11,593 bases of DNA, taken from UHGV virus genome UHGV-1887975; one strand, given 5' to 3'. Below, piece after piece: positions 1 through 11,526 of the stretch (within the stretch, counting starts at the first letter, position 1; the number at the start of each line of letters is the position of its first letter). The DNA is from a virus. The notes beneath the pieces were generated by a model. It was not told the DNA's origin and did not search any database. It worked only from the letters and a program-made list of their open reading frames with translations. A program made the position numbers and the translations under genes.

Positions 1-128
1 CATAAAGTAAGGTCAATTACGCCAAAAATGACATTTTCACTGATCCTGATCGTCTTGCCTTATTGAATATGATTGCTATTTGCATTTAAAATCGAGACCT
101 GGTTTTTCTACTGAAATGATTATGACTT

Positions 129-141
129 CAATGACCCTTGA
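129..141. repeat. 13-bp exact direct repeat CAATGACCCTTGA, left copy; candidate left attachment-site core
   Basis: Identical 13-mer at 129..141 and 11514..11526, the latter immediately distal to the integrase gene. A single 13-mer match in an 11.6 kb window is not by itself significant. Confidence 0.3.
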
Positions 142-258
142 ATAAAGTCTATTCGGTTTTCTTTAGATGTTCGCCTCACATAATCTTCAAGTGATGTTCC
201 TTACATCTCCCTAGAGCGTTAAGATAGTTAACTGATTGAGTTTTCAGGGTATGAAAGG

Positions 259-924
259 ATGAGCAACACTACTGATTGGGGAAGCATGATAGCCAACATA
301 GTTATGGCTACTACCGCTGTCTGGGCTGCATTCAAAGCTAATGACTGGTTTAAAACCAAGCGTCTTGAGAGTGCTGAAAACTTCTATAAAGAAGTACACA
401 ATCTCCATAAACGTTACTATTCAGCTATCCAATACGTTGAGGATTCAAGAAGAATATTTGATAGTCAGTATGGGTTGCATTCGCCAATATCTGAACCTAA
501 AGACAAGTCATTGCAATGGGAGGTTAAATCGAACTCTTACAAAATCATCGCTGAACTAGATTATCTGGCATCGTCACTACAAATGATGGATGCAATGGGT
601 AACAAACTTAGCCCTAAATCGGCTTCACTGGTTAGTGATATGATGGAAGCACATGGACGATTCTGTAATGATGTGATGAACTTCAATGACTCAGTTTGGA
701 AGGTTATAAGGGCAGGTATAACTGAAGAGAACATCCCACATACGCGAGGCTATGTGAACGGCGATTACATGGCTATCCTTACCAGTATGGATGAACCTGT
801 AAGAATATCTTTTAAGTTAAAAGAAATCAGTTTTAAAGATTTTTACTTACATGAAACTACTATGCAGTCAGTAATAACGAGGCTGAAATCGCTTATCGCC
901 AGAACAGGTAAAAACAGGACATAA
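259..924 (+). CDS. Hypothetical protein, 221 aa, with predicted N-terminal transmembrane anchor
   Basis: Uninterrupted 666-nt ORF. Residues about 10-26 (IANIVMATTAVWAAF) form a hydrophobic helix followed by a charged soluble domain. The AAAGGA purine run abuts the ATG at 259 with essentially no spacer, so the true start may be the in-frame ATG at 286. No recognisable family motif. Confidence 0.55.
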   Translation: MSNTTDWGSMIANIVMATTAVWAAFKANDWFKTKRLESAENFYKEVHNLHKRYYSAIQYVEDSRRIFDSQYGLHSPISEPKDKSLQWEVKSNSYKIIAELDYLASSLQMMDAMGNKLSPKSASLVSDMMEAHGRFCNDVMNFNDSVWKVIRAGITEENIPHTRGYVNGDYMAILTSMDEPVRISFKLKEISFKDFYLHETTMQSVITRLKSLIARTGKNRT

Positions 925-1112
925 ACAGGTTAGTACCTATGCAATTTAACGGTATTTTTCCAAGTATCTATGCAATCCTACACAGATTCTATACAGTATC
1001 GACATAGTTTCCTTTTGGTATAACTTATTGAAATATATAAAGAATCTGTGAAGCCCCTTTTCAGGGTAAACTGTATCGTGTTAGTCGTCCCTCTCTCGAC
1101 TCCTAGAAAAGT

Positions 1113-1142
1113 GCTATATACAGGGCTATATAATGCTATATA
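1113..1142. repeat. Three tandem copies of GCTATATA (starts 1113, 1125, 1135)
   Basis: Direct reading: GCTATATAcaggGCTATATAatGCTATATA, spacing 12 and 10 bp. Contains a TATAAT hexamer at 1129..1134. Confidence 0.5.
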
Positions 1143-2591
1143 GATAGTTGGTCACATGGTGTAACTATCAAACTACTTAACAGTTTCCTACGTGAAAGTT
1201 AGAAAGTGATAGTTATAGTTACCTTGTCAAATCTTCGTAGTCCATTCTTAAAAAATCACTTACAGACACCTTAATATCTATACAGATTTCATGTAGAACA
1301 CGATTAGTGCGTAGAAGAGTCATTATGTTAAAAACGAACTGTATACGTATCAGTACTGATTTATAAGGGTTTTGTGTATTTGAAGATAAGAGGCTATACA
1401 GCACCTTGAGAGCATGTCTTCTAAGTCATTGATACATAAGGTCACAGAAGTTTGTGTCTGTTACAGAGAAAACTGGATAGGACTTCACAGAACTACAAAA
1501 TGTTACAGCTATTGATAGGTGAAATCTTCTTGATAGATGCCTTGAAGTGTGGTGAAGGTTTCTTGAGGTGGAGCTAAACAGATGCTATGAAGAAAGTCAA
1601 TAGTTGGTTATAGATATTTTAACTGCTTTTGCAAAGGGGGTGCTGTATCGTGAATCTGGGGTACTTAACAGCCATCAATCATGAGGTAGATTCTACCGAA
1701 TCAACTGTGTAGATATTTTTTAAGATTATCGGTGAAGGGGGAATGCAGAGGGGGGTACTACGATTTTTATAAAAATTTTCAGAAGCCAAATAACTACTGT
1801 GTATATTTTGCACAATCCTGCCAAACCTCATAGAAAGCTCTGTAGCGAGTTTTAACCCCATTTTTAGGGGTAACCTGTAGGGATGTACCACCCACCTTAA
1901 AATAAAGGGGTAAAATCGCTTAGAATGCGTTACAGAGCGTCTGAGAAGCTATATTCACAGATTTTACTAAAGTCTCAGACTTCTAAGTAGTCTTTTTAAC
2001 GGGAGGGTTCTTTCTCATGTATCACCCTCTCTTCCCGCTAAGTAAGCTACACAGACCTAGAGAACATGCCTTCACAGCATCTATATCAGGTCAGATTTAG
2101 AGGGTTTTGATAGAATTTTCAAAGGTACTTGACAGATAACTATGAAGTTGTTAGGAAGAATTGTTTAACGGGAGGAAAGATACGATATAACCCGAAGGGA
2201 AAGTATCATCTTAACAGTGATTGTAAGAGATACCTGAAAAGCTCCTCTTAACAGAACTACCAAGAAGAGAGGGAACGATAAGACCAGAGGTAGTGACCTG
2301 TTAAATAGTTCGTTTCAAAGCTCTTAAGAGTCTGTTAAGTAAGGGCTATGTGAACAATCTTACCATTTTGTCAATGCTCTTGTCTTTGACCTAAATCAAT
2401 AAAATGTATCGTTTGATATGGTTTTAAGCAAGATGGCTAAAAATCTTTTTAGAGGGGCGCTTCGCTTGTGTCACTATGTTCTTTCTCTCCCTGTCTAAGA
2501 GGGGGGTTACAGAGGTCTTTCAAGTCTCAATAGACAAACCGAGGAACGCAGGAAACCGAGGGAAGAAAAACTATTGTGATTACCCTGAACA

Positions 2592-2625
2592 AGGTCTGTA
2601 AAGGTCGTTTAAGAGGTCGGTTAAG
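2592..2625. repeat. Three tandem AGGTC-containing units of 10-12 bp (AGGTC at 2592, 2602, 2614); iteron-like
   Basis: Direct reading: aAGGTCtgtaa / AGGTCgtttaag / AGGTCggttaag. The last two units are 12 bp and differ at one position. Confidence 0.5.
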
Positions 2626-2749
2626 AAAGGAGCTTCCCTCTCTGGGGTTGTCGCTCTTCTCTCGCTTGGTGGATTGATTAGGGGGTATGTTATACAAGCC
2701 CAACTAAGAAGACCTCTGAAGCTTACCTGTGAAGAAGCTGAACAGCTAT

Positions 2750-2900
2750 TATATTGGGTGATTACAACTCATTGAAAAATAAGCATTTTTAGAAATCACT
2801 GTTAAGGTTGCAGAGTTGTCTGTGAGGAGACTTGTCTGCTCTCTATATTGGGTGGTTACAACTTATTGAAAAATAAGAACTTTTAGAAATCACTGTCAGA
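2750..2900. repeat. Pair of 57-bp imperfect direct repeats (2750..2806 and 2844..2900), 94-bp period
   Basis: Aligned by eye: TATATTGGGTGaTTACAACTcATTGAAAAATAAGcatTTTTAGAAATCACTGT versus TATATTGGGTGgTTACAACTtATTGAAAAATAAGaacTTTTAGAAATCACTGT, roughly 50 of 57 identical. Confidence 0.6.
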
Positions 2901-2998
2901 GAGGTGAATACTTGATAGATACAGCTTTCCGGTTCTGTCAAGTCATTTTTTAATAGATAGCATAAAATGCTAAAGATACCCCTATACCATCACGTACA

Positions 2999-3030
2999 GG
3001 GGGTTTTGAAGGGGGTTTAACGGGGGTCTG
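2999..3030. repeat. Three tandem G5-tract units (GGGGG at 2999, 3011, 3022)
   Basis: Direct reading: GGGGGTTTTGAA / GGGGGTTTAAC / GGGGGTCTGTG, spacing 12 and 11 bp. Overlaps the 3' end of the - strand small ORF. Confidence 0.5.
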
Positions 3031-3193
3031 TGTGGTCATTATCCTTAAGGTCAAGCGTCCATGTACGACCGAACAGTTTAAAGACAACAAGCACTCTGAC
3101 GAGGACGTAGCGAAGTAGCAGGCCTGCAATAAGTCCAATACCTCCACCAGCCCATACATCAGGTGACCCCAATTCTGGAGGGAGATTTACCAT
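3017..3193 (-). CDS. Putative small membrane protein, 58 aa (MVNLPPELGSPDVWAGGGIGLIAGLLLRYVLVRVLVVF...)
   Basis: Internal ATG of the track ORF 3017..3235 at 3191..3193 is preceded on the - strand by AAGGA about 7 nt upstream. It encodes a strongly hydrophobic glycine-rich helix of about 23 residues. It lies within locally GC-richer sequence, antisense to all neighbouring genes. Could be spurious. Confidence 0.35.
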   Translation of the reverse strand: MVNLPPELGSPDVWAGGGIGLIAGLLLRYVLVRVLVVFKLFGRTWTLDLKDNDHTDPR

Positions 3194-3410
3194 TAAATTT
3201 CCTTGTAAGACGCTCTCAATCGCATTCTGACACAAAAAAGTACCTGACCTTATAGTTGACCTGAAGAGGCCATTTAACTCGTTACAGAGCGATTGAAGAG
3301 GTCTGTGTGCAATGCAATAACCATGTGACCACTCTCATAGCCACGCCTCATATTTTACTCTCCCCATAGAACCATTATACCACAGATGTTAATGAAATGT
3401 TAAAAAGTGC

Positions 3411-3439
3411 TTGACATTAGTCTTTGAAAATGCTAGTAT
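3411..3439 (+). promoter_or_regulatory. Sigma70-type promoter: TTGACA, 17-bp spacer, TAGTAT
   Basis: Consensus -35 TTGACA at 3411..3416, 17-nt spacer, -10 TAGTAT at 3434..3439 (4 of 6 to TATAAT), about 48 bp upstream of the ATG at 3488. A TTAACAGAGG word sits at the expected transcription start. Confidence 0.55.
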
Positions 3440-3487
3440 TGTATATAAGTTAACAGAGGATTAACAATTATAAGGACTAGCTTATGA

Positions 3488-4042
3488 ATGAACGACAGAG
3501 AATTTAGAGCGATGCTTCAGGCATCAAGAGAACGCAACAAGCACAACTCCTACGCTTACACAAACAACCCCACCAGCTACGAACTACCAGCCTTTTCCAA
3601 ATCCGAACGTAAAAGCATTGAAGCGGTCATTCGTAGCATTACGCCACGAGGCAGATATATGCCAACACGCAAAACAACAAAGAATAACTTAAAAACTTTC
3701 TTGATGAGTTTTGACAGCTACGAACAATTACCGTCACGAATTGAAGATGTAATTATCGGCACTTGTCGCAGCTTTGGAAGGGATAACTATCACCGGAAAG
3801 TTTTCTATTTGCTTCGAAGCCTTGATGAGATTAACTCAAGCACAGTGACGAGCCATCTTCAAAGACAAGCAACCAGACTTAGCCACGAGCTACCATCTGA
3901 TAAGTATTGCGCTAATTTAACCACCATTTGCAATAAAGTTATCGAGACAATCAATCATCATGTTGGGGTTGGTAATATCAGCCTTACGACCAGTGAGCCA
4001 GACTTTGAATTTGACGTATACGCACAAGCAGAGGAATTTTAA
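3488..4042 (+). CDS. Hypothetical protein, 184 aa
   Basis: First gene after the predicted promoter; AAGGA about 10 nt upstream of the ATG. Basic, Ser/Thr/Arg-rich. No motif I can recognise. Confidence 0.65.
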   Translation: MNDREFRAMLQASRERNKHNSYAYTNNPTSYELPAFSKSERKSIEAVIRSITPRGRYMPTRKTTKNNLKTFLMSFDSYEQLPSRIEDVIIGTCRSFGRDNYHRKVFYLLRSLDEINSSTVTSHLQRQATRLSHELPSDKYCANLTTICNKVIETINHHVGVGNISLTTSEPDFEFDVYAQAEEF

Positions 4043-4043
4043 A

Positions 4044-4325
4044 ATGGGAAATAAACACACACTAACCAGAGTTACAAAGACAGCCTTTGAAGAACTTAAC
4101 CGAATCAAAAACATTACAGGTCTGCCACACTCAGCAGTGATGAAGCTTGCAATTAACCGTGATATTAACGAGCAGGATTTGCTTAATAGTCGTTTAGAGG
4201 CAGCAAGACACCATATCAGGATTAAGCAAGATGACCTTGATAGTCTGAAATCTTTAAATGCTTTTGGACTGGATTTAGCAAGGTTACTAAGTATCAAAAT
4301 TCACAAATTAGCGATGGAGGTTTAA
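4044..4325 (+). CDS. Hypothetical small protein, 93 aa (start moved to the RBS-supported ATG)
   Basis: Track ORF 3960..4325 would overlap the upstream gene by about 80 nt. The in-frame ATG at 4044 is preceded by GAGGAA (4031..4036) and begins 2 nt after the upstream stop. Its stop overlaps the next start (TAATG). Confidence 0.6.
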   Translation: MGNKHTLTRVTKTAFEELNRIKNITGLPHSAVMKLAINRDINEQDLLNSRLEAARHHIRIKQDDLDSLKSLNAFGLDLARLLSIKIHKLAMEV

Positions 4326-4711
4326 TGTATGACTTTTATAAACATCGTGACCATTTGGTAAGATTTGACGGTAAAGTCTGGAAAGACGTAACACAAACCA
4401 ATAAGCCCAAGTTTACCCACCAGCAATTAGCCTCAAGATTTGATATCTGGGCTGAAGCACAAAAAGATAATGGTGATTTCGAGTTTATCAGAGGTTTTGA
4501 TTATGCTTACGAAAGCGACCTTAAAGACGCCATTGAATTAATGGAGAACTTCAACTCTATTAAAAATAGTGACAAGCACAAAGCCAACGGTAACAGATAC
4601 GATAAAGATTTAATCATTGATGCAATCACCAAAGGACAATCACAAAGTTATATTTCTGAGAAATACGGCTTATCACGTAGTCAATACTACAAGATTAAAG
4701 CGTCTGTGTAA
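4325..4711 (+). CDS. Putative DNA-binding protein with C-terminal helix-turn-helix, 128 aa; possible transcriptional activator
   Basis: The C-terminal segment DKDLIIDAITKGQSQSYISEKYGLSRSQYYKIKASV has the classic pattern of a helix-turn-helix as found in small phage activators and sigma region-4-like domains. The start is translationally coupled to the upstream gene. Family assignment is an inference. Confidence 0.6.
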   Translation: MYDFYKHRDHLVRFDGKVWKDVTQTNKPKFTHQQLASRFDIWAEAQKDNGDFEFIRGFDYAYESDLKDAIELMENFNSIKNSDKHKANGNRYDKDLIIDAITKGQSQSYISEKYGLSRSQYYKIKASV

Positions 4712-4723
4712 GTCTGTGAGAAT

Positions 4724-4792
4724 GAGTGAGACTCAAAGATGAGCTACCCTATTACTAAGGTGTCTCACTCCCTCTGTAACCCGCATGGTTAC
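4724..4792 (+). promoter_or_regulatory. Two consecutive hairpin-forming inverted repeats in the gap between genes
   Basis: Perfect 9-bp inverted repeat GAGTGAGAC (4724..4732) / GTCTCACTC (4762..4770) with a 29-nt loop, followed by a 6-bp stem GTAACC (4776..4781) / GGTTAC (4787..4792) with a 5-nt loop. No U-tract follows either, so they are not classic terminators. Confidence 0.4.
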
Positions 4793-4849
4793 TGGCCTCA
4801 GAATGGCTATTTTGGCAGATTTAAGATGTGTTTTTATAGGATTTTAAAA

Positions 4850-5173
4850 ATGAATAATTTCCCACTACAGATTTTTATTGATACCGACACCGCCATGATG
4901 ATTCAGGCTTTCACTGATGTAGGTGTTAGCATTGACTTTGATAAGTTGTTAGAGTTAATGGCTGATNATNCNGANANCATCTNTGACTTTATTCACTCGG
5001 TGGAGTTTAACGAGCCTCGAATGATGTTACCAATTACAGACAGTAATATGAAAAGATTGGTTATTGAGCAAACGAACAAATACAGTATTTCCCCAGAGCA
5101 ATTTTTGAAAGGTGCTGTGACAATCCTGTACAGCGATAATATTTTGGTTACGGATTCCGTGAGGGTTCACTAA
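4850..5173 (+). CDS. Hypothetical protein, about 107 aa (alternative start 4739 gives 144 aa); contains ambiguous bases
   Basis: Track ORF 4739..5173. The ATG at 4739 lies inside the hairpin region, so the in-frame ATG at 4850 is preferred, but neither has a strong RBS. Codons 4967..4984 include N, so several residues are undefined. Confidence 0.45.
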   Translation: MNNFPLQIFIDTDTAMMIQAFTDVGVSIDFDKLLELMADXXXXIXDFIHSVEFNEPRMMLPITDSNMKRLVIEQTNKYSISPEQFLKGAVTILYSDNILVTDSVRVH

Positions 5174-5250: not shown

Positions 5251-5468
5251 TGTTATCAATCTGTTAAAAGCTGTTGACAAATAACCTTAAGCATGAGATG
5301 ATGGTAATAGGGGGCAACTCTTCCTGAATTAAACTATTAATCATTCTACATCAATGATAGTTATTCTGAGTTGGAAAGGTGCAATGCTTTTCGTCATGGC
5401 CTATTTAGCCCACACTAGATAGGCTATCTCAAAAAGTCTTTGTTTATTCATTGAATCCTTTACAGATT

Positions 5469-5496
5469 GCCCTAATCATGAGTTAGGGCGTTTTTT
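5469..5496 (+). terminator. Rho-independent terminator
   Basis: Perfect 7-bp stem GCCCTAA (5469..5475) / TTAGGGC (5483..5489), 7-nt loop, followed by G then TTTTTT (5491..5496). Confidence 0.65.
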
Positions 5497-5667
5497 AAGA
5501 GTTTTTAAAGAAATTTCTTCACCAGCCCTTTATAGCGTTTTAGTTATCTAGGGCTTTTTCAGCTTTTAAAAAGCATACTTGGCAAACGCTTTTAAGTCTC
5601 TTCTAAGTTCGTAGGCTGTCAGGTGTGCTTTTTAAAAACTGAATATTACTTAGAAGAGGAAAAAACA

Positions 5668-6378
5668 ATGACAAACGATTTATATATTAACGGCAGAAAG
5701 ATTGATAGCTTCGGGGACTGGTCACCACAGGGTGAACATCCGCTACATACTATTCAGCGTAAAGAACACGATGAAAGAATTAAGCTTGAGCAAGAGTTAA
5801 AGATGTCACCAAAGGTAATTTCCTTTGTGTCTCCTGAGCCTCAAGAAATGCCTGATGTATGCAAAACTGAAGCACTATTTAATCTTGAGCGTGAATATTA
5901 CCCACTGCTAAAAGCACAGCGTATTAAACTAGATGACGCTTACAGCAAAGTTACCCTGATGCAATCAGCTATTGAGCCATCAGAATTTGAGATTCAGGAT
6001 GAATTGTCACAGAAACCATTTGTCTATTACAAATATGAAGACAATGATGGTTTTGGTACTTTTCCTGAGAATATCCCAGACGTGATTAATAATCTTCCTG
6101 ATGGATATCGAATTGTGAAGATGGTTAAAGCTTCAAGAGGTGCTGGTCAGTTTATTTTCATGACCGATAGGAGCGATGAAGAACTCTGTGAAATTGCTAA
6201 ACAGAACATCTTAGCATCACGTAACAAGCAACTTGAAAATGTTAAGTTGTATCTCTCAAGAGAGCTTCAGGCTATGAAAGAGCTTGTTAGTGAATATGAA
6301 TCACAGAAGAAGATTGCTATGCAGGCTGATATTGAGCAGTTAGTGAAGATTTCTCAGAAATATGCAAAGGCACTTTAA
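5668..6378 (+). CDS. Hypothetical protein, 236 aa (start moved to the RBS-supported ATG)
   Basis: Track ORF starts at 5623. The in-frame ATG at 5668 is preceded by GAGGA (5656..5660) with 7-nt spacing. Acidic, with a coiled-coil-like C-terminus. No recognisable motif. Confidence 0.65.
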   Translation: MTNDLYINGRKIDSFGDWSPQGEHPLHTIQRKEHDERIKLEQELKMSPKVISFVSPEPQEMPDVCKTEALFNLEREYYPLLKAQRIKLDDAYSKVTLMQSAIEPSEFEIQDELSQKPFVYYKYEDNDGFGTFPENIPDVINNLPDGYRIVKMVKASRGAGQFIFMTDRSDEELCEIAKQNILASRNKQLENVKLYLSRELQAMKELVSEYESQKKIAMQADIEQLVKISQKYAKAL

Positions 6379-6402
6379 CTATGAATTAAAAGGAGGTGGT
6401 GA

Positions 6403-6606
6403 ATGATTGATTTAACAGAACGCTATGAGCTTATTAAAGCAATTAGTGAACGATTGAAAGAACAACCCAACAAACCAAAACGAATCAAATCATCCACCTC
6501 TAAGCAAAAGAATAGAATCAGAAGAATCGCTAAATGGTGTCTTGATAAATTACCAAGTGATTGTCAGATTGTCGGTGAAGATGGTAATTATTATCTGGTT
6601 AGGTAA
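6403..6606 (+). CDS. Hypothetical small basic protein, 67 aa
   Basis: Strong RBS AAGGAGG (6390..6396) 6 nt upstream of the ATG. Lys/Arg-rich centre (KPKRIKSSTSKQKNRIRRIAK). Followed by a terminator. Confidence 0.65.
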   Translation: MIDLTERYELIKAISERLKEQPNKPKRIKSSTSKQKNRIRRIAKWCLDKLPSDCQIVGEDGNYYLVR

Positions 6607-6672: not shown

Positions 6673-6702
6673 GTATATGAGATAGTCTTCTATCGAATCC
6701 TG

Positions 6703-6801
6703 TGTGCTACGTGATGATTCGGATAAGAATTATCCTCATGAAATCTGTAAAACTAATACCCACACTGAAAAATAGAATTTACGTACAACACGCTTAAAGA
6801 G
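6703..6801 (+). promoter_or_regulatory. Upstream regulatory cassette, copy 1: GTGTGCTACGTGA, ATACCCAC-N-AAAAAT, TTTACGTA, CACGCTTAAAGAG
   Basis: The same four blocks occur in the same order upstream of the gene at 9102. This copy carries an extra palindrome GGATAAGAATTATCC (6721..6735) between the first and second blocks. Confidence 0.55.
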
Positions 6802-6812
6802 GTGAAACATGA

Positions 6813-8936
6813 ATGAGCAAATTCACAGTTGATAGTTTTATCGTTGAGCTAGGCTTCAATGAAAACGTTATTAAGGGACTGCAAAGAGTTGAAAAGGCAG
6901 CTTTGCAGTCAGCACAAAGAATTGAAAAGAACCTAAATAAAGGTTTCAGGATTAATACAAAGCAGCTTGATAGTAATTTAACGGCTTCTTTAGGGCAGCT
7001 TGAAAGGAAGTTTAATAAGGCCTTTGACAAGATTGAACAGAGAGCAAGAAATACTAAAGCTTTCCAGTTTACCACCAGATTTAATGACACTGTTAATCCT
7101 CCAAAACAACCAAGACAGCCACGAATTAGCGGAAACAGAGCAATCACAGCAGCTTACTCAGCGAATATGAGCAAGCTAAAAGGCCTTAACCCAATTGTCG
7201 AGAAATACATTAAGAGTCAGTTTTACGGGCTATCTGCTAAAGCCGGGTCAATGGATTCTTCAAAATTCAATGAGAAGTTAGCTCAGTTAAACGCTTCAGT
7301 CAGAGAAGCAATTGCTAAAGCCAGAGGTCATACATCCACCAGCATTAATGGTGACAGAGCAGCTAATAGTCTTGATAACCTGTCTTCAGCAGCAGTTAAA
7401 ACAGCAGGTGCATTTATCTCAATGCAGGCTGTATTAGCCAGTTATCAGAAGATTATGGAAATTGGTTTACAGCGTGCAAGTGCTGAACGTTCAATTGATT
7501 TCGTATTTGATAAAGATGCAGGTCAGGTAAAAGAGTTCACAAAGTCATTAGCTCAAACAACGGGTTTAGATATCGCTGAACTGCAATCACAGTTTGCTGG
7601 TTTTGGTGCTTCAGCTAAAGAGTCTATGGGTATTCAAGGTTCTGAAGAACTTTTTAAAAATATGATTGGCTATGCTCGTCTGATGGGGAGAAGTGAAGAA
7701 GAGATTAAGCGAGCACTGACAGCATTATCACAGATGGCTGGTAAGGGTCAGATTATGGCTGAAGAGCTTAAGGGGCAACTGGCTGAAGCTGTTCCTGGTA
7801 TGGTTCAGGTATTCGCTAAAGCAACCGGAAAGACTGAACAGGAATTATTTGATGCCATGAAGAAGGGGGCTTTAAAATCTGCCGATACTCTTCAGAAGGT
7901 CACTCAGGAACTGAATAAACAAATCACCGCTAAAGGTGGCTGGAAAGCCATTTCAGAAAGTACTCAGGCACAACTAGGGAACTTGAAAAACTCTTGGAAT
8001 ACCACGCTTGATAGTATCTTCAGAGGTTCTGAAAATGGTCTGCAAGATTTTACACGAAGCCTAACAACGCTTTTAAACGCTCTTGGTGGAAGTGGTAAAA
8101 GTCTTGGTGAATCTCTTGGTAGTCTCATGACTTCTATGTCACATGGTGTCGATAGTCTGACCGATATTAGTTACAAGGTGCGAGCGTTCTTTGATGAGGT
8201 GACATTAGCTTACCGTTCACTAAATGACACTCAGAGGAAAATTGTTGATGGTTTATCTGATGGGTTAATTGATGGTTTGAAGATGCTTGCTGTGGCTGTT
8301 ACTGCTCAAAAGGCTGCAAATGTAGCTGGAGGCTTGTTAAACCTTGCAAATGCTGTTACTTCATTCGGTGATGCTGTTAATAAAGCTAAAGCTGGCAAGG
8401 CTGGTTCTTCAGGTGGTGCGCTAAGTAAAGTCGGTAGAGTTGTCCTTTATGCTGAGTTGGTAAACTTTGCTCTTGATAATTTAAACCCTGAAGCAGCTAA
8501 GAATCCGAACTTACACCAATCAGGTATTGGTACAGAAACAAACTTCAATCCTGAATACAAAGGCGATTCTAAACCAAACCAAATTAATGAGGGGTGGGCT
8601 AAGATTGGTAGTTCTATCGCTGACTGGTTTAATGGTGCAGCTAATAAAATTGCTAACTTACAAGAACCGATGAATAACTTCGTAAATAACACACAATCAA
8701 CTCCACCAGCTATCGACACGGTGAATATCAATGCTCAATTAGCTATGGCTGTATCAGAGTTAGGAAGAAAGGTTGATGCTTTAACAGTAGAAGCTCGGAA
8801 GCCTTTATCAGTTAATATCAAAGGTGAAGCAATTGTTAGGCCGGATGAGCCATCTTTCTTTAATTTCAATCAATCAGCTAATGACCAGTTCACGCAGGAT
8901 ATGCTCTTAAGTTCAAGCTATCCAGAGGAAGAATGA
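6813..8936 (+). CDS. Tape-measure-domain protein, 707 aa (putative phage tail length tape-measure protein)
   Basis: The central segment GYARLMGRSEEEIKRALTALSQMAGKGQIMAEELKGQLAEAVPGMVQVFAKATGKTEQELFDAMKKGALKSADTL matches, as I recall it, the conserved tape-measure signature of lambda gpH-type proteins. N-terminus is coiled-coil-like; C-terminal third is Asn/Gln/Ser-rich low complexity. RBS AGAGGTG about 10 nt upstream. Confidence 0.75.
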   Translation: MSKFTVDSFIVELGFNENVIKGLQRVEKAALQSAQRIEKNLNKGFRINTKQLDSNLTASLGQLERKFNKAFDKIEQRARNTKAFQFTTRFNDTVNPPKQPRQPRISGNRAITAAYSANMSKLKGLNPIVEKYIKSQFYGLSAKAGSMDSSKFNEKLAQLNASVREAIAKARGHTSTSINGDRAANSLDNLSSAAVKTAGAFISMQAVLASYQKIMEIGLQRASAERSIDFVFDKDAGQVKEFTKSLAQTTGLDIAELQSQFAGFGASAKESMGIQGSEELFKNMIGYARLMGRSEEEIKRALTALSQMAGKGQIMAEELKGQLAEAVPGMVQVFAKATGKTEQELFDAMKKGALKSADTLQKVTQELNKQITAKGGWKAISESTQAQLGNLKNSWNTTLDSIFRGSENGLQDFTRSLTTLLNALGGSGKSLGESLGSLMTSMSHGVDSLTDISYKVRAFFDEVTLAYRSLNDTQRKIVDGLSDGLIDGLKMLAVAVTAQKAANVAGGLLNLANAVTSFGDAVNKAKAGKAGSSGGALSKVGRVVLYAELVNFALDNLNPEAAKNPNLHQSGIGTETNFNPEYKGDSKPNQINEGWAKIGSSIADWFNGAANKIANLQEPMNNFVNNTQSTPPAIDTVNINAQLAMAVSELGRKVDALTVEARKPLSVNIKGEAIVRPDEPSFFNFNQSANDQFTQDMLLSSSYPEEE

Positions 8937-8952
8937 TTTCTTATATATATCC

Positions 8953-9026
8953 GTGTGCTACGTGAAATCTTCTGAACGGATATACCCACTAAAAATTATT
9001 TTTTACGTAGCTCACGCTTAACAGAG
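8953..9026 (+). promoter_or_regulatory. Upstream regulatory cassette, copy 2: GTGTGCTACGTGA, ATACCCACTAAAAAT, TTTACGTA, CACGCTTAACAGAG
   Basis: Same four blocks as 6703..6801 in the same order and similar spacing, but without the palindrome insert. Ends about 75 nt upstream of the ATG at 9102. Confidence 0.55.
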
Positions 9027-9101: not shown

Positions 9102-9872
9102 ATGATTTACACTAATCAGCTTCGTTACAGTGGCAAAGATGGTGTTTACTTCCATCTACAAGGCCAACCAGATAATTTCTTGTCACTATCAGCAACTGAG
9201 AACATGGAATATGACAGCCCTATGATGGTGACCACTCAAAATATGCAATCAGGGCAGACTGTAACAGATAATGTAATGCGTTCACCAAGAACTATTTCAA
9301 TCAGTGGTGTGGTTGTGGTTGGTGAATCCGGTAGTATCCTTATCTCAAGAGATAATAAGCTGGTGGAAAACTTCATAGACACTCTTGAAAACTGGCGTGA
9401 CCAGAAGCAAATTATCTCAGTTGTCTGTAAAGATGGTATTAAGATTGACGACTCAATTATTACAAGCTTTAAAGCCTCTAAAGATGTTGGTATTTCAAAC
9501 GGCCTAAGAATCCAGCTAACTTTTCAGGAAATCAACTTTAAAGCTATCGTAGGGCAAACTGATATTTCGACTGCTACTGGCAAGACCGCTACCACGAATG
9601 ATGGTGGTGCTACTTCTAAGAAGAATACAGGGAATACTACGACAAGTCTTGGAAGCCCTATGCTGACCTGTAAAGAGCTTTTTAGCTATTCGGCAAGTAA
9701 GTTATCAGATGAAGCGCTAAAAGCCCGTGTAACGTGCTCTAAGAGCGTTAGCGTTAAAAATGGTGAGAGCACCTTCACAGCCTCAGCTAATGAGCAAGCT
9801 TCAAAGGTGCTTAAGTCGGGTAATGCTTTACGGAAGTACTCTGTGAATCCGAATAAGAAGGGCACTTATTGA
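9102..9872 (+). CDS. Hypothetical protein, 256 aa; possible tail-associated structural protein by position only
   Basis: The track ORF begins at a TTG (9081). The ATG at 9102 has AAGGAG (9090..9095) at 6-nt spacing. Ser/Thr/Gly-rich. Assignment as tail-associated rests only on its position after the tape-measure-like gene. Confidence 0.65.
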
Positions 9873-9904: not shown

Positions 9905-11425
9905 TTACAGTTGATAAGCGTCAATATCCAGTAGCTCTTTATCAGCAATTTCAAAGATTGGTGACCCATCATTTAGCGGTAACGGGTTTGTAGGTATGGT
10001 TATTTCAGTGTCGTTCTGTAGCGTTACAGTTACCGAATCCTTACCCAATGTCAGCCCCTTTAGATGCTTGGACAAAATCAACTGACACTCGACACGACCC
10101 GCTTTAGTTGTCAGGTCAATATCTTTAAGCTGGGGTAGTTCCTTATCAGTGAGTGAAGCCTTACGCCTCATGTTATCAATCGTGGTCTGTAGCTCTGTGC
10201 GCTTCTGGTTCAGTTCCTTAAGCTGAATTTTTAGTTCATCAATATCATCCATCTCAAGAAGTAGGGCGGTAGCTTTCTTGATTCTGGTTGTGACAATTTC
10301 AACCTCATGCTGTAGAGATGCAATCTTCCCCTCTGCTTCTCCATCATTCCCCACGTCAATCATCCCCAGAAAATTATCAATCATCCACTTATCAAACGGT
10401 TTACGCTTCAACGGAGGAACATCACAGCGACCATCAAGATGGTTATTGCACCGATAAACGCCCTGATACTTATTCTTAGTCCCTGTAGGGTGAACACTAG
10501 CCCCGCACTGACACCTAAACAGACCTTTGAAGATGTTAATCGTTAATGGATTATCACTTGCAGGTGTACGGCCTATACGGTTCTTACCAAGAATCTCTTG
10601 AGCTTTATTGAACGTTGAAGCATCTATAGCGGCTTCGTAGTAGTTCGGTATAGCGGGGCGGTCATTACGTTGTGATGCTGGTAACGTGCCTATCGTTGTC
10701 TCTGACCTTAAGATGGTGCGTACAGAGTGAACACTAAACCCGTTAGCATCTTTACGGCGACTAAACGACTTTATACCGTTGCTTTGAAGGTGACGGGCGA
10801 TGTTATGCAGACTTTCACCACTTAGCAGCAGCTTGAAAATCAGTCTTACAGTCTCAGCGTGTTCATTGAGTTTAAAAGTATCGGGGTCAATCCATCCGGG
10901 AACCATCTTTGTTAAACGTTGTTCACCAGCAAGGGCAAGTTTTGCACGTTGCTCCCATTTCTGAGAAACACGGAAAGACTTCTGCTTAGATTCCTGATGC
11001 GCTATGTAGGCTTTGACACGCTGGATGATTGAGATTCCTAAATCATCGGCTAAAGCATCCTTTGTGTAGATAAGACCATCTTGTAGCGTGTGAATCTCTA
11101 ACCCGTTGCCTAAGATGCGATTCATCAAGGCTTCTGTTTCAAGGTGTTCTAAGCGGCCTATACGGTCGATACTCTCAACAAGCAAAATCGTACCTTCTGG
11201 AAACTCCCCAGACTCAATACGGGCTAACATGTCACCAAACTGACCAGTAAGATGCTTACCTTTGTAACCGGATAGGCCTTCATCACTGAAAGACGCTACT
11301 ACTTGAGCATCGCTATTCTTCTTCAGCCACTGCTTGAACAGGTCGTTTTGTCGTCTGGTTGAATCTGCACCTTCAGCGCCTTGTATAGCTGAACTGTACC
11401 GAAGGTATGTAATTACGCTCCTCAT
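9905..11425 (-). CDS. int: Large serine recombinase (site-specific integrase), 506 aa
   Basis: N-terminal resolvase-type catalytic domain with candidate nucleophilic Ser in YLRYSSAIQ, a D-x-G-x-SG motif (SDEGLSGYKG) and LVESIDRIGR resembling the resolvase DRLGR box. A large recombinase domain follows, then a Cys-rich zinc-ribbon-like segment (CQCG...C...C) and a C-terminal coiled coil. This is the typical large-serine-recombinase architecture. GGGAG RBS upstream on the - strand. Confidence 0.9.
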   Translation of the reverse strand: MRSVITYLRYSSAIQGAEGADSTRRQNDLFKQWLKKNSDAQVVASFSDEGLSGYKGKHLTGQFGDMLARIESGEFPEGTILLVESIDRIGRLEHLETEALMNRILGNGLEIHTLQDGLIYTKDALADDLGISIIQRVKAYIAHQESKQKSFRVSQKWEQRAKLALAGEQRLTKMVPGWIDPDTFKLNEHAETVRLIFKLLLSGESLHNIARHLQSNGIKSFSRRKDANGFSVHSVRTILRSETTIGTLPASQRNDRPAIPNYYEAAIDASTFNKAQEILGKNRIGRTPASDNPLTINIFKGLFRCQCGASVHPTGTKNKYQGVYRCNNHLDGRCDVPPLKRKPFDKWMIDNFLGMIDVGNDGEAEGKIASLQHEVEIVTTRIKKATALLLEMDDIDELKIQLKELNQKRTELQTTIDNMRRKASLTDKELPQLKDIDLTTKAGRVECQLILSKHLKGLTLGKDSVTVTLQNDTEITIPTNPLPLNDGSPIFEIADKELLDIDAYQL

Positions 11426-11488
11426 GGTGATAAACTCCCATGCAATTGATTCTCATTTAAAGATAAGCTTATAACCATTATGGCTAAT

Positions 11489-11526
11489 GCTACAATGCCG
11501 AATAGCTACAATACAATGACCCTTGA
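11489..11526. repeat. Integrase-proximal repeat cluster: GCTACAATG / GCTACAAT / ACAATG, then the right copy of CAATGACCCTTGA; candidate attachment-site region
   Basis: Direct reading of 11489..11526. The 13-mer at 11514..11526 is identical to 129..141. Sequence to the right becomes GC-rich (cctcgccgcttcccctggccgacg...). Confidence 0.4.

What the first reader, a model, noticed from the sequence alone, without database searches (positions are those of the whole stretch)
6813..8936. Tape-measure-domain gene in an element that otherwise lacks recognisable virion genes
Tape-measure proteins are normally embedded in a tail module (major tail protein, chaperones with a programmed frameshift, distal tail and baseplate genes). 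Here the gene is flanked by small unknowns and an integrase, and I cannot recognise capsid, terminase, portal or other tail genes in the window. Possible readings: (a) a phage satellite that supplies or modifies a tail component of a helper; (b) a decayed prophage remnant; (c) a domesticated tape-measure-like protein with a non-virion role. Satellites carrying tail components would be unusual, since known satellites mostly remodel capsids.
Basis: partly seen in the sequence, partly recalled or inferred. Interest (0 to 1): 0.7.

Follow-up and report, generated by a model that had tools for sequence, protein, structure and literature searches.

The report
Tail-gene island parasitising Felix O1-like phages
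The tape-measure gene is real and sits, together with a second tail gene, in a complete 11.4-kb mobile island of E. coli that copies two tail parts of the virulent Felix O1-like phages, so it is most likely a phage satellite that builds hybrid tails, a trick so far shown only for the cholera satellite PLE.

Summary
ORF 6813-8936 is an intact 707-aa tape measure protein (TMP). The context was partly misread: the next gene (9102-9872) is also a tail gene, the tube initiator.

The window holds a whole 11.4-kb island plus short E. coli flanks. The island is bounded by a 13-bp direct repeat in the first codons of tonB and carries a large serine recombinase. There is therefore no hidden virion module outside the window.

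TMP and tube initiator are the syntenic gp17/gp18 pair of virulent Felixounavirus myophages. The tube initiator is 71% identical to the phage protein. The TMP is only about 30% identical overall, but it keeps the phage's N-terminal 45 residues and its hub-contacting C-terminal tip. Both genes are under purifying selection.

The pair occurs in 503 of 5426 complete E. coli genomes, at several sites, always in the same small island. The island's 2.5-kb ORF-free region shares short blocks with the phage's terminal-repeat region.

Best reading (about 0.6): a PLE-like satellite of Felix O1-like phages that makes chimeric tails. Rivals: a tail-poisoning defence island, or a prophage remnant (rejected). 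No satellite step was shown here, neither excision, replication, packaging nor transfer.

The concept has been known since Mathur et al. 2026. I found no description of this E. coli family.

The parts
129..141 (+). attL core: 13-bp direct repeat CAATGACCCTTGA, the left island boundary inside the first codons of tonB
   Evidence: Comparison of the window ends with the empty site; exact repeat positions.
259..924 (+). 221-aa variable cargo gene of unknown function
   Evidence: No family hit. Other genes occupy this position in related islands.
925..3487 (.). ORF-free region of 2.5 kb. Blocks at 1596-1730 and 2245-2338 resemble the non-coding terminal-repeat region of Felixounavirus genomes. Candidate cis site for packaging or replication (inferred).
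3017..3193 (-). 58-aa small hydrophobic ORF transcribed leftward from the divergent control region
   Evidence: Called as a gene in related contigs. Promoter-like site on the minus strand at 3403-3374.
3374..3439 (.). Divergent sigma-70-like promoters (minus strand TTAACA-18-TATAAT; plus strand TTGACA-17-TAGTAT)
3488..5173 (+). Rightward operon of four small unknown proteins: 184 aa (3488-4042), 93 aa (4044-4325, weak DndE/RHH-like hit), 128 aa (4325-4711, weak C-terminal HTH) and 107 aa (4850-5173)
5274..5497 (+). Conserved promoter-to-terminator unit, a candidate sRNA of about 200 nt
5668..6606 (+). 236-aa helix-rich protein (5668-6378; the PGAP label 'transposase' is unsupported) and a 67-aa basic protein (6403-6606), both conserved across the family
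6702..6797 (+). Regulatory element upstream of the TMP, duplicated upstream of the tube initiator
6813..8936 (+). Tape measure protein, 707 aa. The N-terminal 45 aa and the C-terminal tip match Felixounavirus TMP gp17; the middle is diverged.
8953..9021 (+). Second copy of the regulatory element
9102..9872 (+). Tube initiator (Dit-like baseplate protein), 256 aa, 71% identical to Felixounavirus gp18
9905..11425 (-). Large serine recombinase (integrase), 506 aa
11514..11526 (+). attR core CAATGACCCTTGA, which regenerates the tonB start ATG ACC CTT GA

Best explanation
The window is one complete member of a large family of islands of about 11.2-12 kb in Escherichia, Shigella and Citrobacter, with protein homologues named from Salmonella. 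The islands behave like satellites of virulent Felix O1-like (Ounavirinae) myophages.

Shown here:
- The island is a discrete unit integrated by a large serine recombinase.
- It has no capsid, portal, terminase, sheath or tube genes.
- It carries its own versions of exactly two neighbouring helper tail genes, the tape measure (helper gp17) and the tube initiator (helper gp18).
- Both are intact and under purifying selection.
- The TMP keeps the helper-like N-terminal 45 residues and the C-terminal tip, which in Bas63 contacts the puncture device and hub. Its middle has diverged.
- Island TMPs are 16-54 residues shorter than the helper's.

Inferred:
- On infection by a helper, the island is excised and copied.
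- Its TMP and tube initiator replace the helper's during tail initiation on the helper's hub, giving chimeric tails about one tube ring shorter.
- Those tails serve particles that carry island DNA, as shown experimentally for PLE and ICP1 in Vibrio cholerae.
- The ORF-free region, which shares sequence blocks with the helper's direct-terminal-repeat region, would be the cis site through which helper packaging or replication factors recognise the island.
- Diverting tail initiation would also lower helper yield and so protect the host population.
For: Element boundaries:
- The empty site and the 13-bp repeat define the island.
- The integrase is a large serine recombinase.
- The only virion-related hits are TMP and tube initiator.

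Helper link:
- TI DNA is 80-84% identical to Felixounavirus genomes only.
- The TI protein is 71% identical over its full length and matches PDB 9ndy_A at E 5e-112.
- The TMP matches 9ndy_F at E 1e-66.
- The gene order TMP then TI is the same as in the phage.

Docking ends are conserved:
- The first 40 aa are 75% identical to the phage.
- The tip DMLLSSSYPEEE compares with the phage's DILLSSSYPEEE.
- The last 30 nt are 97% identical to the phage.
- The Bas63 structure shows that the last 25 TMP residues contact the puncture apparatus and hub (PMC12609058).

Selection and length:
- dN/dS is 0.23-0.38 for the TMP and 0.12-0.18 for the TI.
- TMP length stays at 688-726 aa in islands whose TMPs are only 40% identical. 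The helper's is 742 aa.

Family:
- 503 of 5426 complete E. coli genomes carry the pair, at 635 places, up to 6 per genome.
- The same architecture occurs at tonB and yecE and in Citrobacter.
- Island size is constant at 11.2-12.0 kb despite swapped cargo.
- Island GC is 39.6% against 47-48% in the flanks. Published helper GC is 38.7-39% (PMC3185647, PMC8303462).

Helper-like non-coding DNA:
- The island ORF-free region hits almost only Felixounavirus-type genomes in 2.3 Gb of phage DNA, in unannotated DNA, with E down to 1e-11.
- 0 of 200 dinucleotide shuffles reach the observed scores.
- The best block lies inside the annotated 581-bp terminal repeat of phage Pr103Blw (DTR packaging in PMC8303462).

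Precedent: PLEs, which also use large serine recombinases and a virulent myophage helper, encode TAC, TMP and a baseplate hub, make shorter chimeric tails, and need their TMP for transduction (PMC12987554).
Against: - Nothing here shows excision, replication, packaging or transfer.
- The attP junction was not found in JGI metagenome or IMG/VR contigs, while the integrated left junction is in 9 metagenome contigs.
- No replication initiator, small terminase, capsid-size factor or tail assembly chaperone is recognisable.
- The strong terminal-repeat-like block is present only in some island lineages. It is weak in L006 and L010.
- The repeat-word density is far lower than in the phage repeat.
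- The element upstream of TMP and TI is not found in the helper genome, so helper-dependent expression is not supported.
- Some copies carry IS insertions in the TMP.
Confidence: 0.6

Rival explanations
1. A defence island that poisons helper tails. The island moves by some other route or mostly vertically. Its TMP and tube initiator act as dominant-negative or decoy subunits. They enter the helper's tail-initiation complex and abort tail assembly, protecting the population, without the island being packaged.
For: - Conserved docking ends with a diverged middle are what a competitive inhibitor would also need.
- Tail-assembly blocking is a recognised defence strategy on mobile elements: Tai (PMC11364771) and PLE11 Rta.
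- No packaging or replication genes are recognisable, and no attP junction was found.
- TMP sequence diversifies quickly among islands that share a 94%-identical integrase, as expected in an arms race.
Against: - A poison need not preserve full tape-measure length, yet all intact copies are 688-726 aa.
- It need not come as a TMP plus tube-initiator pair, both under purifying selection.
- It does not explain the helper terminal-repeat-like DNA.
- It does not explain the narrow island size, the low phage-like GC, or the spread to several integration sites and genera.
- There are no PADLOC hits.
- In PLE, defence and transduction coexist, so this is partly a sub-case of the main reading.
Confidence: 0.22
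2. A decayed remnant of a prophage whose tail module has been reduced to two genes.
For: Only two structural genes remain next to an integrase. Some copies carry IS insertions.
Against: - The closest relatives of both genes are strictly lytic 85-90-kb Felixounaviruses (PMC8594841, PMC11737134).
- No other coding similarity to that phage exists.
- The boundaries are precise att repeats.
- All ORFs are intact, with dN/dS well below 1.
- The same 11-12-kb architecture recurs in hundreds of genomes at different sites.
Confidence: 0.03
3. A domesticated TMP-like protein with a non-virion role, for example an effector or scaffold for a host contractile or secretion apparatus, or an envelope-acting protein.
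For: TMP-related effectors of contractile injection systems have been reported (title and abstract of PMC13277306, listed). Most island genes are of unknown function.
Against: - No sheath, tube or hub genes lie in or next to the island.
- The nucleotide-level similarity of the TMP ends and of the TI to a circulating virulent phage points to continuing interaction with that phage's tail rather than with a host machine.
Confidence: 0.05

Closest known systems
[quoted passage not shown]
   Same: Both are small islands integrated by a large serine recombinase. In both, the helper (here inferred) is a virulent myophage. Both encode their own TMP plus a second tail-initiation protein that diverges from the helper's. 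In both, the satellite TMP is shorter than the helper's. PLEs also carry a conserved small RNA (SviR), and this island has a conserved sRNA-like unit.
   Different: - Host and helper differ: Enterobacteriaceae with Felixounavirus, against V. cholerae with ICP1.
- This island is 11.4 kb, against about 18 kb for PLE (size from my own knowledge).
- The partner gene is the tube initiator, not the baseplate hub BhuB.
- No tail assembly chaperone, RepA_N initiator, capsid-remodelling gene or nuclease gene is recognisable.
- The tube initiator is 71% identical to the helper's, against 41% for PLE11 BhuB.
- Sequence homology to PLE genes was not tested.
- Every satellite step is inferred here, whereas it was demonstrated for PLE.
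Felixounavirus tail-initiation genes (Bas63 gp17 TMP and gp18 tube initiator; PDB 9NDY; PMC12609058)
   Same: The gene order is the same. The TI is homologous over its full length. The TMP N-terminus, central TMP domain and C-terminal hub-contacting tip are homologous.
   Different: - The island pair sits in an integrative element, without the chaperones upstream or the spacer, hub and puncture genes downstream.
- The two genes are separated by about 165 nt that carries a duplicated regulatory element, whereas they overlap in the phage.
- The TMP middle and C-terminal third are diverged, and the protein is 35 aa shorter.
[quoted passage not shown]
   Same: These are satellite-type islands in which a predicted tmp gene was noted.
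   Different: cf-PICIs encode their own capsid, portal and packaging genes, and none is present here. Whether any element in that figure is this E. coli family could not be checked, because the accession numbers appear only in the figure.
P4-like satellites of P2-like phages
   Same: A common enterobacterial integrative satellite of about 11.6 kb (size from my own knowledge) that exploits a myophage helper.
   Different: As I recall them, P4 has a tyrosine integrase, the alpha primase-helicase, Sid, Psu and Delta, carries no tail genes and depends on a temperate helper. No such family was hit here.

Membership tests
Phage tail tape measure proteins (Pfam TMP_3 PF20155 / TIGR02675) | Profile match above the curated threshold | tested here: met
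   PF20155 at 71.9 bits against a cut-off of 41. TIGR02675 at 50.5 bits against 21.35. PHROG 4036 at E 8e-81.
Phage tail tape measure proteins (Pfam TMP_3 PF20155 / TIGR02675) | Homology to a TMP seen in a solved virion structure | tested here: met
   Bas63 gp17, PDB 9ndy_F, E 1e-66, including the C-terminal tip.
Phage tail tape measure proteins (Pfam TMP_3 PF20155 / TIGR02675) | Gene lies directly upstream of baseplate or tube-initiation genes | tested here: met
   The tube initiator follows the TMP, as in Felixounavirus.
Phage tail tape measure proteins (Pfam TMP_3 PF20155 / TIGR02675) | Preceded by tail assembly chaperone genes (frameshifted G/GT-like pair) | tested here: not met
   The upstream 236-aa and 67-aa proteins show no similarity to the Felixounavirus chaperones and hit no family.
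Phage tail tape measure proteins (Pfam TMP_3 PF20155 / TIGR02675) | Present in tails and sets tail length | not testable with these tools
   Needs virion proteomics and electron microscopy.
Phage satellite (operational definition) | Discrete integrative element with its own integrase and att repeats | tested here: met
   13-bp repeat, empty site and large serine recombinase.
Phage satellite (operational definition) | Lacks a complete virion module and is a fraction of helper size | tested here: met
   Only TMP and TI are virion-related. The island is 11.4 kb; the phage is 86-89 kb.
Phage satellite (operational definition) | Helper-dependent excision, replication, packaging and transfer | not testable with these tools
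   Only indirect hints: helper terminal-repeat-like DNA and the multi-site, multi-genus distribution. The attP junction was not found in contig collections.
PLE family | Large serine recombinase integrase | tested here: met
   Resolvase, Recombinase and Zn_ribbon_recom domains.
PLE family | TAC-TMP(-BhuB) tail cluster | tested here: not met
   A TMP is present, but no chaperone is detectable, and the partner gene is a tube initiator rather than a hub.
PLE family | RepA_N-type initiator with iteron origin | tested here: not met
   No Pfam, NCBIfam or PHROG replication hit in any island protein.
PLE family | Sequence homology to PLE core genes; V. cholerae host with ICP1 helper | not tested
   No PLE sequences were available in the collections used. 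The host here is E. coli.
P4-like, PICI, cf-PICI and PICMI satellites | Hallmark genes (recalled from my own knowledge, not checked against a paper): tyrosine integrase, AlpA, primase/replicase, Sid/Psu/Delta, or own capsid, portal and terS | tested here: not met
   None detected. The integrase is a serine recombinase.
Defective Felixounavirus prophage | Further remnants or pseudogenes of the phage genome in or beside the element | tested here: not met
   blastn and tblastx of the island against GEP101 3507-88372 find only TMP, TI and short non-coding blocks. The flanks are core E. coli genes.
Known anti-phage defence systems (PADLOC 2.0) | Profile match to a defence protein | tested here: not met
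   No hit with E below 0.007. The 2023 library predates Tai and Rta, so their absence is weak evidence.

The most novel reading that the evidence does not exclude
About 9% of complete E. coli genomes, together with Shigella, E. albertii, Citrobacter and probably Salmonella, carry an unrecognised family of satellites of virulent Felix O1-like myophages. These would be the first satellites of a virulent coliphage. On this reading they replace the helper's tape measure and tube initiator to build their own shorter tails. They are recognised by helper packaging or replication factors through a mimic of the helper's terminal-repeat region. They also carry a conserved small RNA, so they would be a convergent counterpart of the Vibrio PLE-ICP1 system in a tractable model organism.
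Probability: 0.45. Interest if true: 0.8.

Novelty: new variant of a known kind. Interest (0 to 1): 0.68.

Why it matters
Chimeric tails made by satellites have been demonstrated in only one system, PLE with ICP1 (2026), and why a satellite needs its own tape measure is still open.

A common E. coli family aimed at Felix O1-like phages would make that question testable with standard genetics. A solved helper structure (Bas63) is available, and the helpers are among the phages used for Salmonella and E. coli biocontrol and typing.

If the islands lower helper yield, they are a widespread, unannotated determinant of resistance to these phages. If they are transduced, they are a new route of gene flow driven by virulent phages.

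The island also displaces the native tonB promoter, which may change iron uptake and sensitivity to TonB-dependent phages and colicins.

Tried and rejected
- **Tail chaperone in the island.** BLASTP of the two ORFs upstream of the TMP against the Felixounavirus chaperones found nothing.
- **Other island proteins.** Pfam, PHROG, NCBIfam and PADLOC gave no significant hit for seven of the ten proteins.
- **236-aa protein labelled 'transposase'.**
  - It has 3125 clusters of homologues; the 120 listed have no Pfam domain.
  - AlphaFold gave mean pLDDT 69 with two long confident helices.
  - Foldseek against viral structures gave no match below E 0.06. The label is unsupported and the function remains unknown.
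- **Helper promoters upstream of TMP and TI.** The shared element is absent from phage GEP101.
- **Rfam.** No family matched in the window.
- **sRNA target search.** Complementarity of the candidate sRNA to GEP101 is no better than for shuffled sequences. A full duplex scan timed out.
- **Excised circles.**
  - The attP junction is absent from JGI metagenome and IMG/VR contigs, although the left junction occurs in 9 metagenome contigs.
  - Two Logan contigs hold just an island, and one starts exactly at the att core. The right end does not show the matching break, so this is inconclusive.
- **IMG/VR hits to the TMP.** The four hits have contig names that look like isolate-genome identifiers (my reading of the names). 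I did not take them as evidence of packaging.
- **Homing endonuclease genes in related islands.** One (AP2 type) resembles T4-like phage genes at 37-41% identity. One (HNH) has no phage match. Neither links specifically to Felixounavirus.
- **9-mer sharing between the island and phage non-coding regions.** This was too sensitive to composition to be used alone.
- **Not tested.** GEP101 bases 1-3506 against the island's coding part, and homology to PLE proteins.
Full report
**1. The observation**

ORF 6813-8936 (+) is an uninterrupted 707-codon gene. It is a tape measure protein (TMP) by four independent tests:
- Pfam TMP_3, 71.9 bits against a cut-off of 41.
- TIGR02675, 50.5 bits against 21.35.
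- PHROG 4036, E 8e-81.
- The TMP of the solved Bas63 virion, PDB 9ndy_F, E 1e-66.

One part of the description is wrong. The gene just downstream (9102-9872) is not an unknown. It matches Pfam Dit_like (E 1e-19). It also matches the 'tube initiator protein gp018' of Bas63 (PDB 9ndy_A, E 5e-112).

**2. The window is a whole mobile island**

The two ends of the window lie next to each other in nearly all complete E. coli genomes searched. They form the yciI-tonB junction.

Alignment with an empty site shows a 13-bp direct repeat, CAATGACCCTTGA, at 129-141 and 11514-11526. The island is 11,385 bp from core to core. It is inserted in the first four codons of tonB, and the right-hand repeat regenerates ATG ACC CTT GA.

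The flanks are core genes, so no virion module lies just outside the window. Island GC is 39.6%, against 47-48% in the flanks.

**3. Where the two tail genes come from**

- The tube initiator (TI) gene is 80-84% identical at DNA level to 164 phage records. Nearly all are Escherichia, Salmonella and Citrobacter phages; those listed are 85-90-kb Felixounavirus-type genomes.
- The TI protein is 71% identical over its full length to its counterpart in phage GEP101.
- The best phage matches to the TMP are also Felixounavirus TMPs, at about 32% identity over residues 1-478.
- In these phages the TMP gene is followed directly by the TI gene. These are gp17 and gp18 in Bas63 (PMC12609058). The island therefore holds the syntenic pair.
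- blastn and tblastx of the island against GEP101 3507-88372 find no other coding similarity.
- Felixounaviruses are lytic phages of 84-91 kb (PMC8594841; lytic lifestyle prediction in PMC11737134). This rules out a decayed prophage of that type.

**4. Pattern of conservation in the TMP**

- Against the phage protein, identity is 75% in the first 40 residues, 25-50% in the central TMP domain and 10-25% in the C-terminal third. It rises again at the extreme tip: DMLLSSSYPEEE in the island, DILLSSSYPEEE in the phage.
- At DNA level the 5' end, including 38 nt upstream of the start codon, is 75% identical to the phage. The last 30 nt are 97% identical.
[quoted passage not shown] The parts that must dock into a helper tail are therefore the parts that are kept.
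- Intact island TMPs are 688-726 aa, against 742 aa in the phage. This holds even though two islands with 94%-identical integrases have TMPs only 40% identical.
- dN/dS is 0.23-0.38 for the TMP, 0.12-0.18 for the TI and 0.12-0.16 for the integrase. All three genes are maintained by selection, the TMP under the weakest constraint.
- Bas63 has 26 tube discs with a rise of 38.1 (Å, as I read the garbled units). A TMP 35 residues shorter predicts a tail about one disc shorter. This is inference.

**5. A large family**

- The TMP-TI pair occurs in 503 of 5426 complete E. coli genomes, at 635 chromosomal places, up to six per genome, at 70-100% DNA identity.
- I inspected the full island in nine examples; all show the same plan. 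They comprise five at tonB, one in yecE, one in Citrobacter and two Logan contigs.
- The plan is: a variable left-hand cargo gene; an ORF-poor stretch that is much shorter in some members (UMNK88); a small leftward ORF; a rightward operon of small unknowns; a protein of about 236 aa; a protein of about 67 aa; TMP; TI; and a large serine recombinase.
- Sizes stay between 11.2 and 12.0 kb although the cargo differs. Cargo includes Dam methylase, HNH and AP2 endonucleases and a small recombinase.
- Relatives occur in Shigella, E. albertii and Citrobacter. Protein homologues are also named from Salmonella and E. fergusonii.
- Some copies have IS elements in the TMP.

**6. Non-coding DNA resembles the helper's terminal-repeat region**

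- Region 925-3487 has no ORF above 72 codons and no annotated gene.
- Searched against 2.3 Gb of phage DNA, it hits 86 records. Nearly all are Salmonella, Escherichia, Citrobacter and Shigella phages; those listed are Felixounavirus-type genomes. In the rows listed the hits lie almost always in unannotated DNA, with E down to 1e-11.
- Against the ORF-free region of GEP101, 0 of 200 dinucleotide shuffles reach the top or second score. Seven hits reach at least 29 bits, against 0.06 expected.
- In phage Pr103Blw the first 581 bp are annotated as the short direct terminal repeat. PhageTerm reports DTR packaging for this phage (PMC8303462).
- Island 2259-2320 matches positions 255-318 of that repeat at 80%. 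Smaller blocks match 451-488.
- The phage repeat region is packed with [CT]TGTTA[AG] words: 21 in about 1 kb, against a genome mean of 0.66 per 500 nt. The island region has 3.9 per kb against 1.33 elsewhere, a much weaker enrichment.
- The strong block is found in only some island lineages.
- I read this as a candidate cis site for helper packaging or replication factors. That is an inference, and the weakest link in the argument.

**7. Comparison with what is known**

Mathur et al. (Nature 2026, PMC12987554) showed the following for PLEs:
- All PLEs encode a TMP and a chaperone, and some also encode a baseplate hub. PLEs use large serine recombinases and parasitise the virulent myophage ICP1.
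- PLE11 virions contain the PLE TMP and hub in place of ICP1's.
- PLE tails are about 10 nm shorter.
- PLE transduction falls 96-99.9% without the PLE TMP.
- Predicted tmp genes also occur in PLE-like elements and in cf-PICIs.

The idea that a satellite carries tail genes is therefore no longer new. The island works like a PLE on the evidence above, but it does not pass a PLE membership test. It has no chaperone and no RepA_N initiator. Its partner gene is a tube initiator rather than a hub. It also lacks the hallmarks, as I recall them, of P4-like, PICI, cf-PICI or PICMI elements.

Only three papers in the searchable library contain both 'satellite' and 'Felixounavirus', and none concerns such an element. 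A description in a source outside the library cannot be excluded.

**8. Rival readings**

- **Defence island whose TMP and TI poison helper tails without being packaged.** This fits the conserved docking ends and the fast TMP divergence. It also has precedents in tail-targeting defences: Tai (PMC11364771) and PLE11 Rta (PMC12987554). It explains less well the preserved tape-measure length, the paired and selected TI, the helper-like non-coding DNA, the constant size and the wide spread. In PLE both roles coexist.
- **Prophage remnant.** Rejected (section 3).
- **Non-virion domesticated role.** Nothing speaks for it.

**9. Verdict**

The TMP call is correct and the coordinates are exact. The context is a complete small island with two helper-derived tail-initiation genes.

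The most likely reading (about 0.6) is a PLE-like satellite of Felix O1-like phages that assembles chimeric tails. No step of the satellite life cycle has been shown. It is a new variant of a recently established kind. It is frequent in E. coli and apparently undescribed. It is directly testable with available phages and a solved helper structure.

Noticed in passing
window 5274-5497 (+): A promoter-to-terminator unit of about 200 nt is more conserved than the neighbouring ORFs. It has TTGACA, 17 nt, then GATGAT (CATAAT in relatives), four hairpins and an intrinsic terminator. It is conserved across seven islands, including one in Citrobacter. The fold z-score is -3.0 and there is little covariation. 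Complementarity to phage GEP101 is not above chance. It is a candidate sRNA; the analogy to PLE SviR is only positional.
   Followed up: partly
window 6702-6797 and 8953-9021 (+): An element of about 70-95 nt is duplicated upstream of the TMP and of the tube initiator (GTGTGCTACGTGA ... TGAAATCT ... ATACCCAC ... TTTACGTAnnnCACGCTTAA). A degenerate inverted copy lies near 1270-1301. It is present in related islands and absent from phage GEP101. In the phage the two genes abut without a spacer.
   Followed up: partly
window 60-141 and 11426-11526: The island sits inside the first four codons of tonB. The coding sequence is restored, but the upstream tonB DNA, including whatever promoter it holds, is moved 11.4 kb away. 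No consensus sigma-70 promoter was flagged between the integrase gene and the tonB start. How tonB is expressed in carriers is therefore open.
   Followed up: partly
window 3017-3193 (-) and 3374-3439: A 58-aa hydrophobic ORF is read leftward from a strong divergent promoter pair. It is called as a gene in several related islands. It may be a small membrane protein of unknown role.
   Followed up: no
window 4967-4983: Six N characters interrupt the 107-aa ORF (4850-5173) and give X residues in the translation.
   Followed up: no
window 5668-6378; loci L001, L007, L008, L011: RefSeq names the 236-aa protein 'transposase', but no Pfam, NCBIfam or PHROG model matches. The AlphaFold model is mostly long helices and has no significant fold match. 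The protein has 3125 clusters of homologues, so a misleading name is widely propagated.
   Followed up: yes
L006 3353-3877 (-); L007 5763-6050; L008 3221-3889 and 5711-5983; L009 2908-3459: Related islands carry variable extras: an AP2-type homing endonuclease (37-41% identical to genes of T4-like phages), small HNH endonucleases, a Dam-type methylase and a small serine recombinase. Homing endonucleases are typical of virulent phage genomes.
   Followed up: partly
hits H111-H121; L025 5868-9908: In a run of human E. coli isolates with identical match statistics, the island TMP is split by IS2. In Citrobacter sp. ANG330 it is split by an insertion carrying two ORFs. Some copies are therefore being inactivated.
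   Followed up: no
L033 (Logan ERR11172911, 11,592 bp) and L034 (ERR14375776, 11,262 bp): Two assembly contigs consist of just one island. L033 begins exactly at the first base of the att core and ends 4 nt after the second core. This could reflect mixed occupied and other junctions in the sample. The two ends do not break symmetrically, so it is not evidence for an excised circle.
   Followed up: partly
one search hit table (Felixounavirus records): In most of the listed Felixounavirus records, the DNA that matches the island's non-coding region lies within about 1 kb of a record end. This fits the physical genome termini lying in that ORF-free region, as annotated for Pr103Blw.
   Followed up: partly
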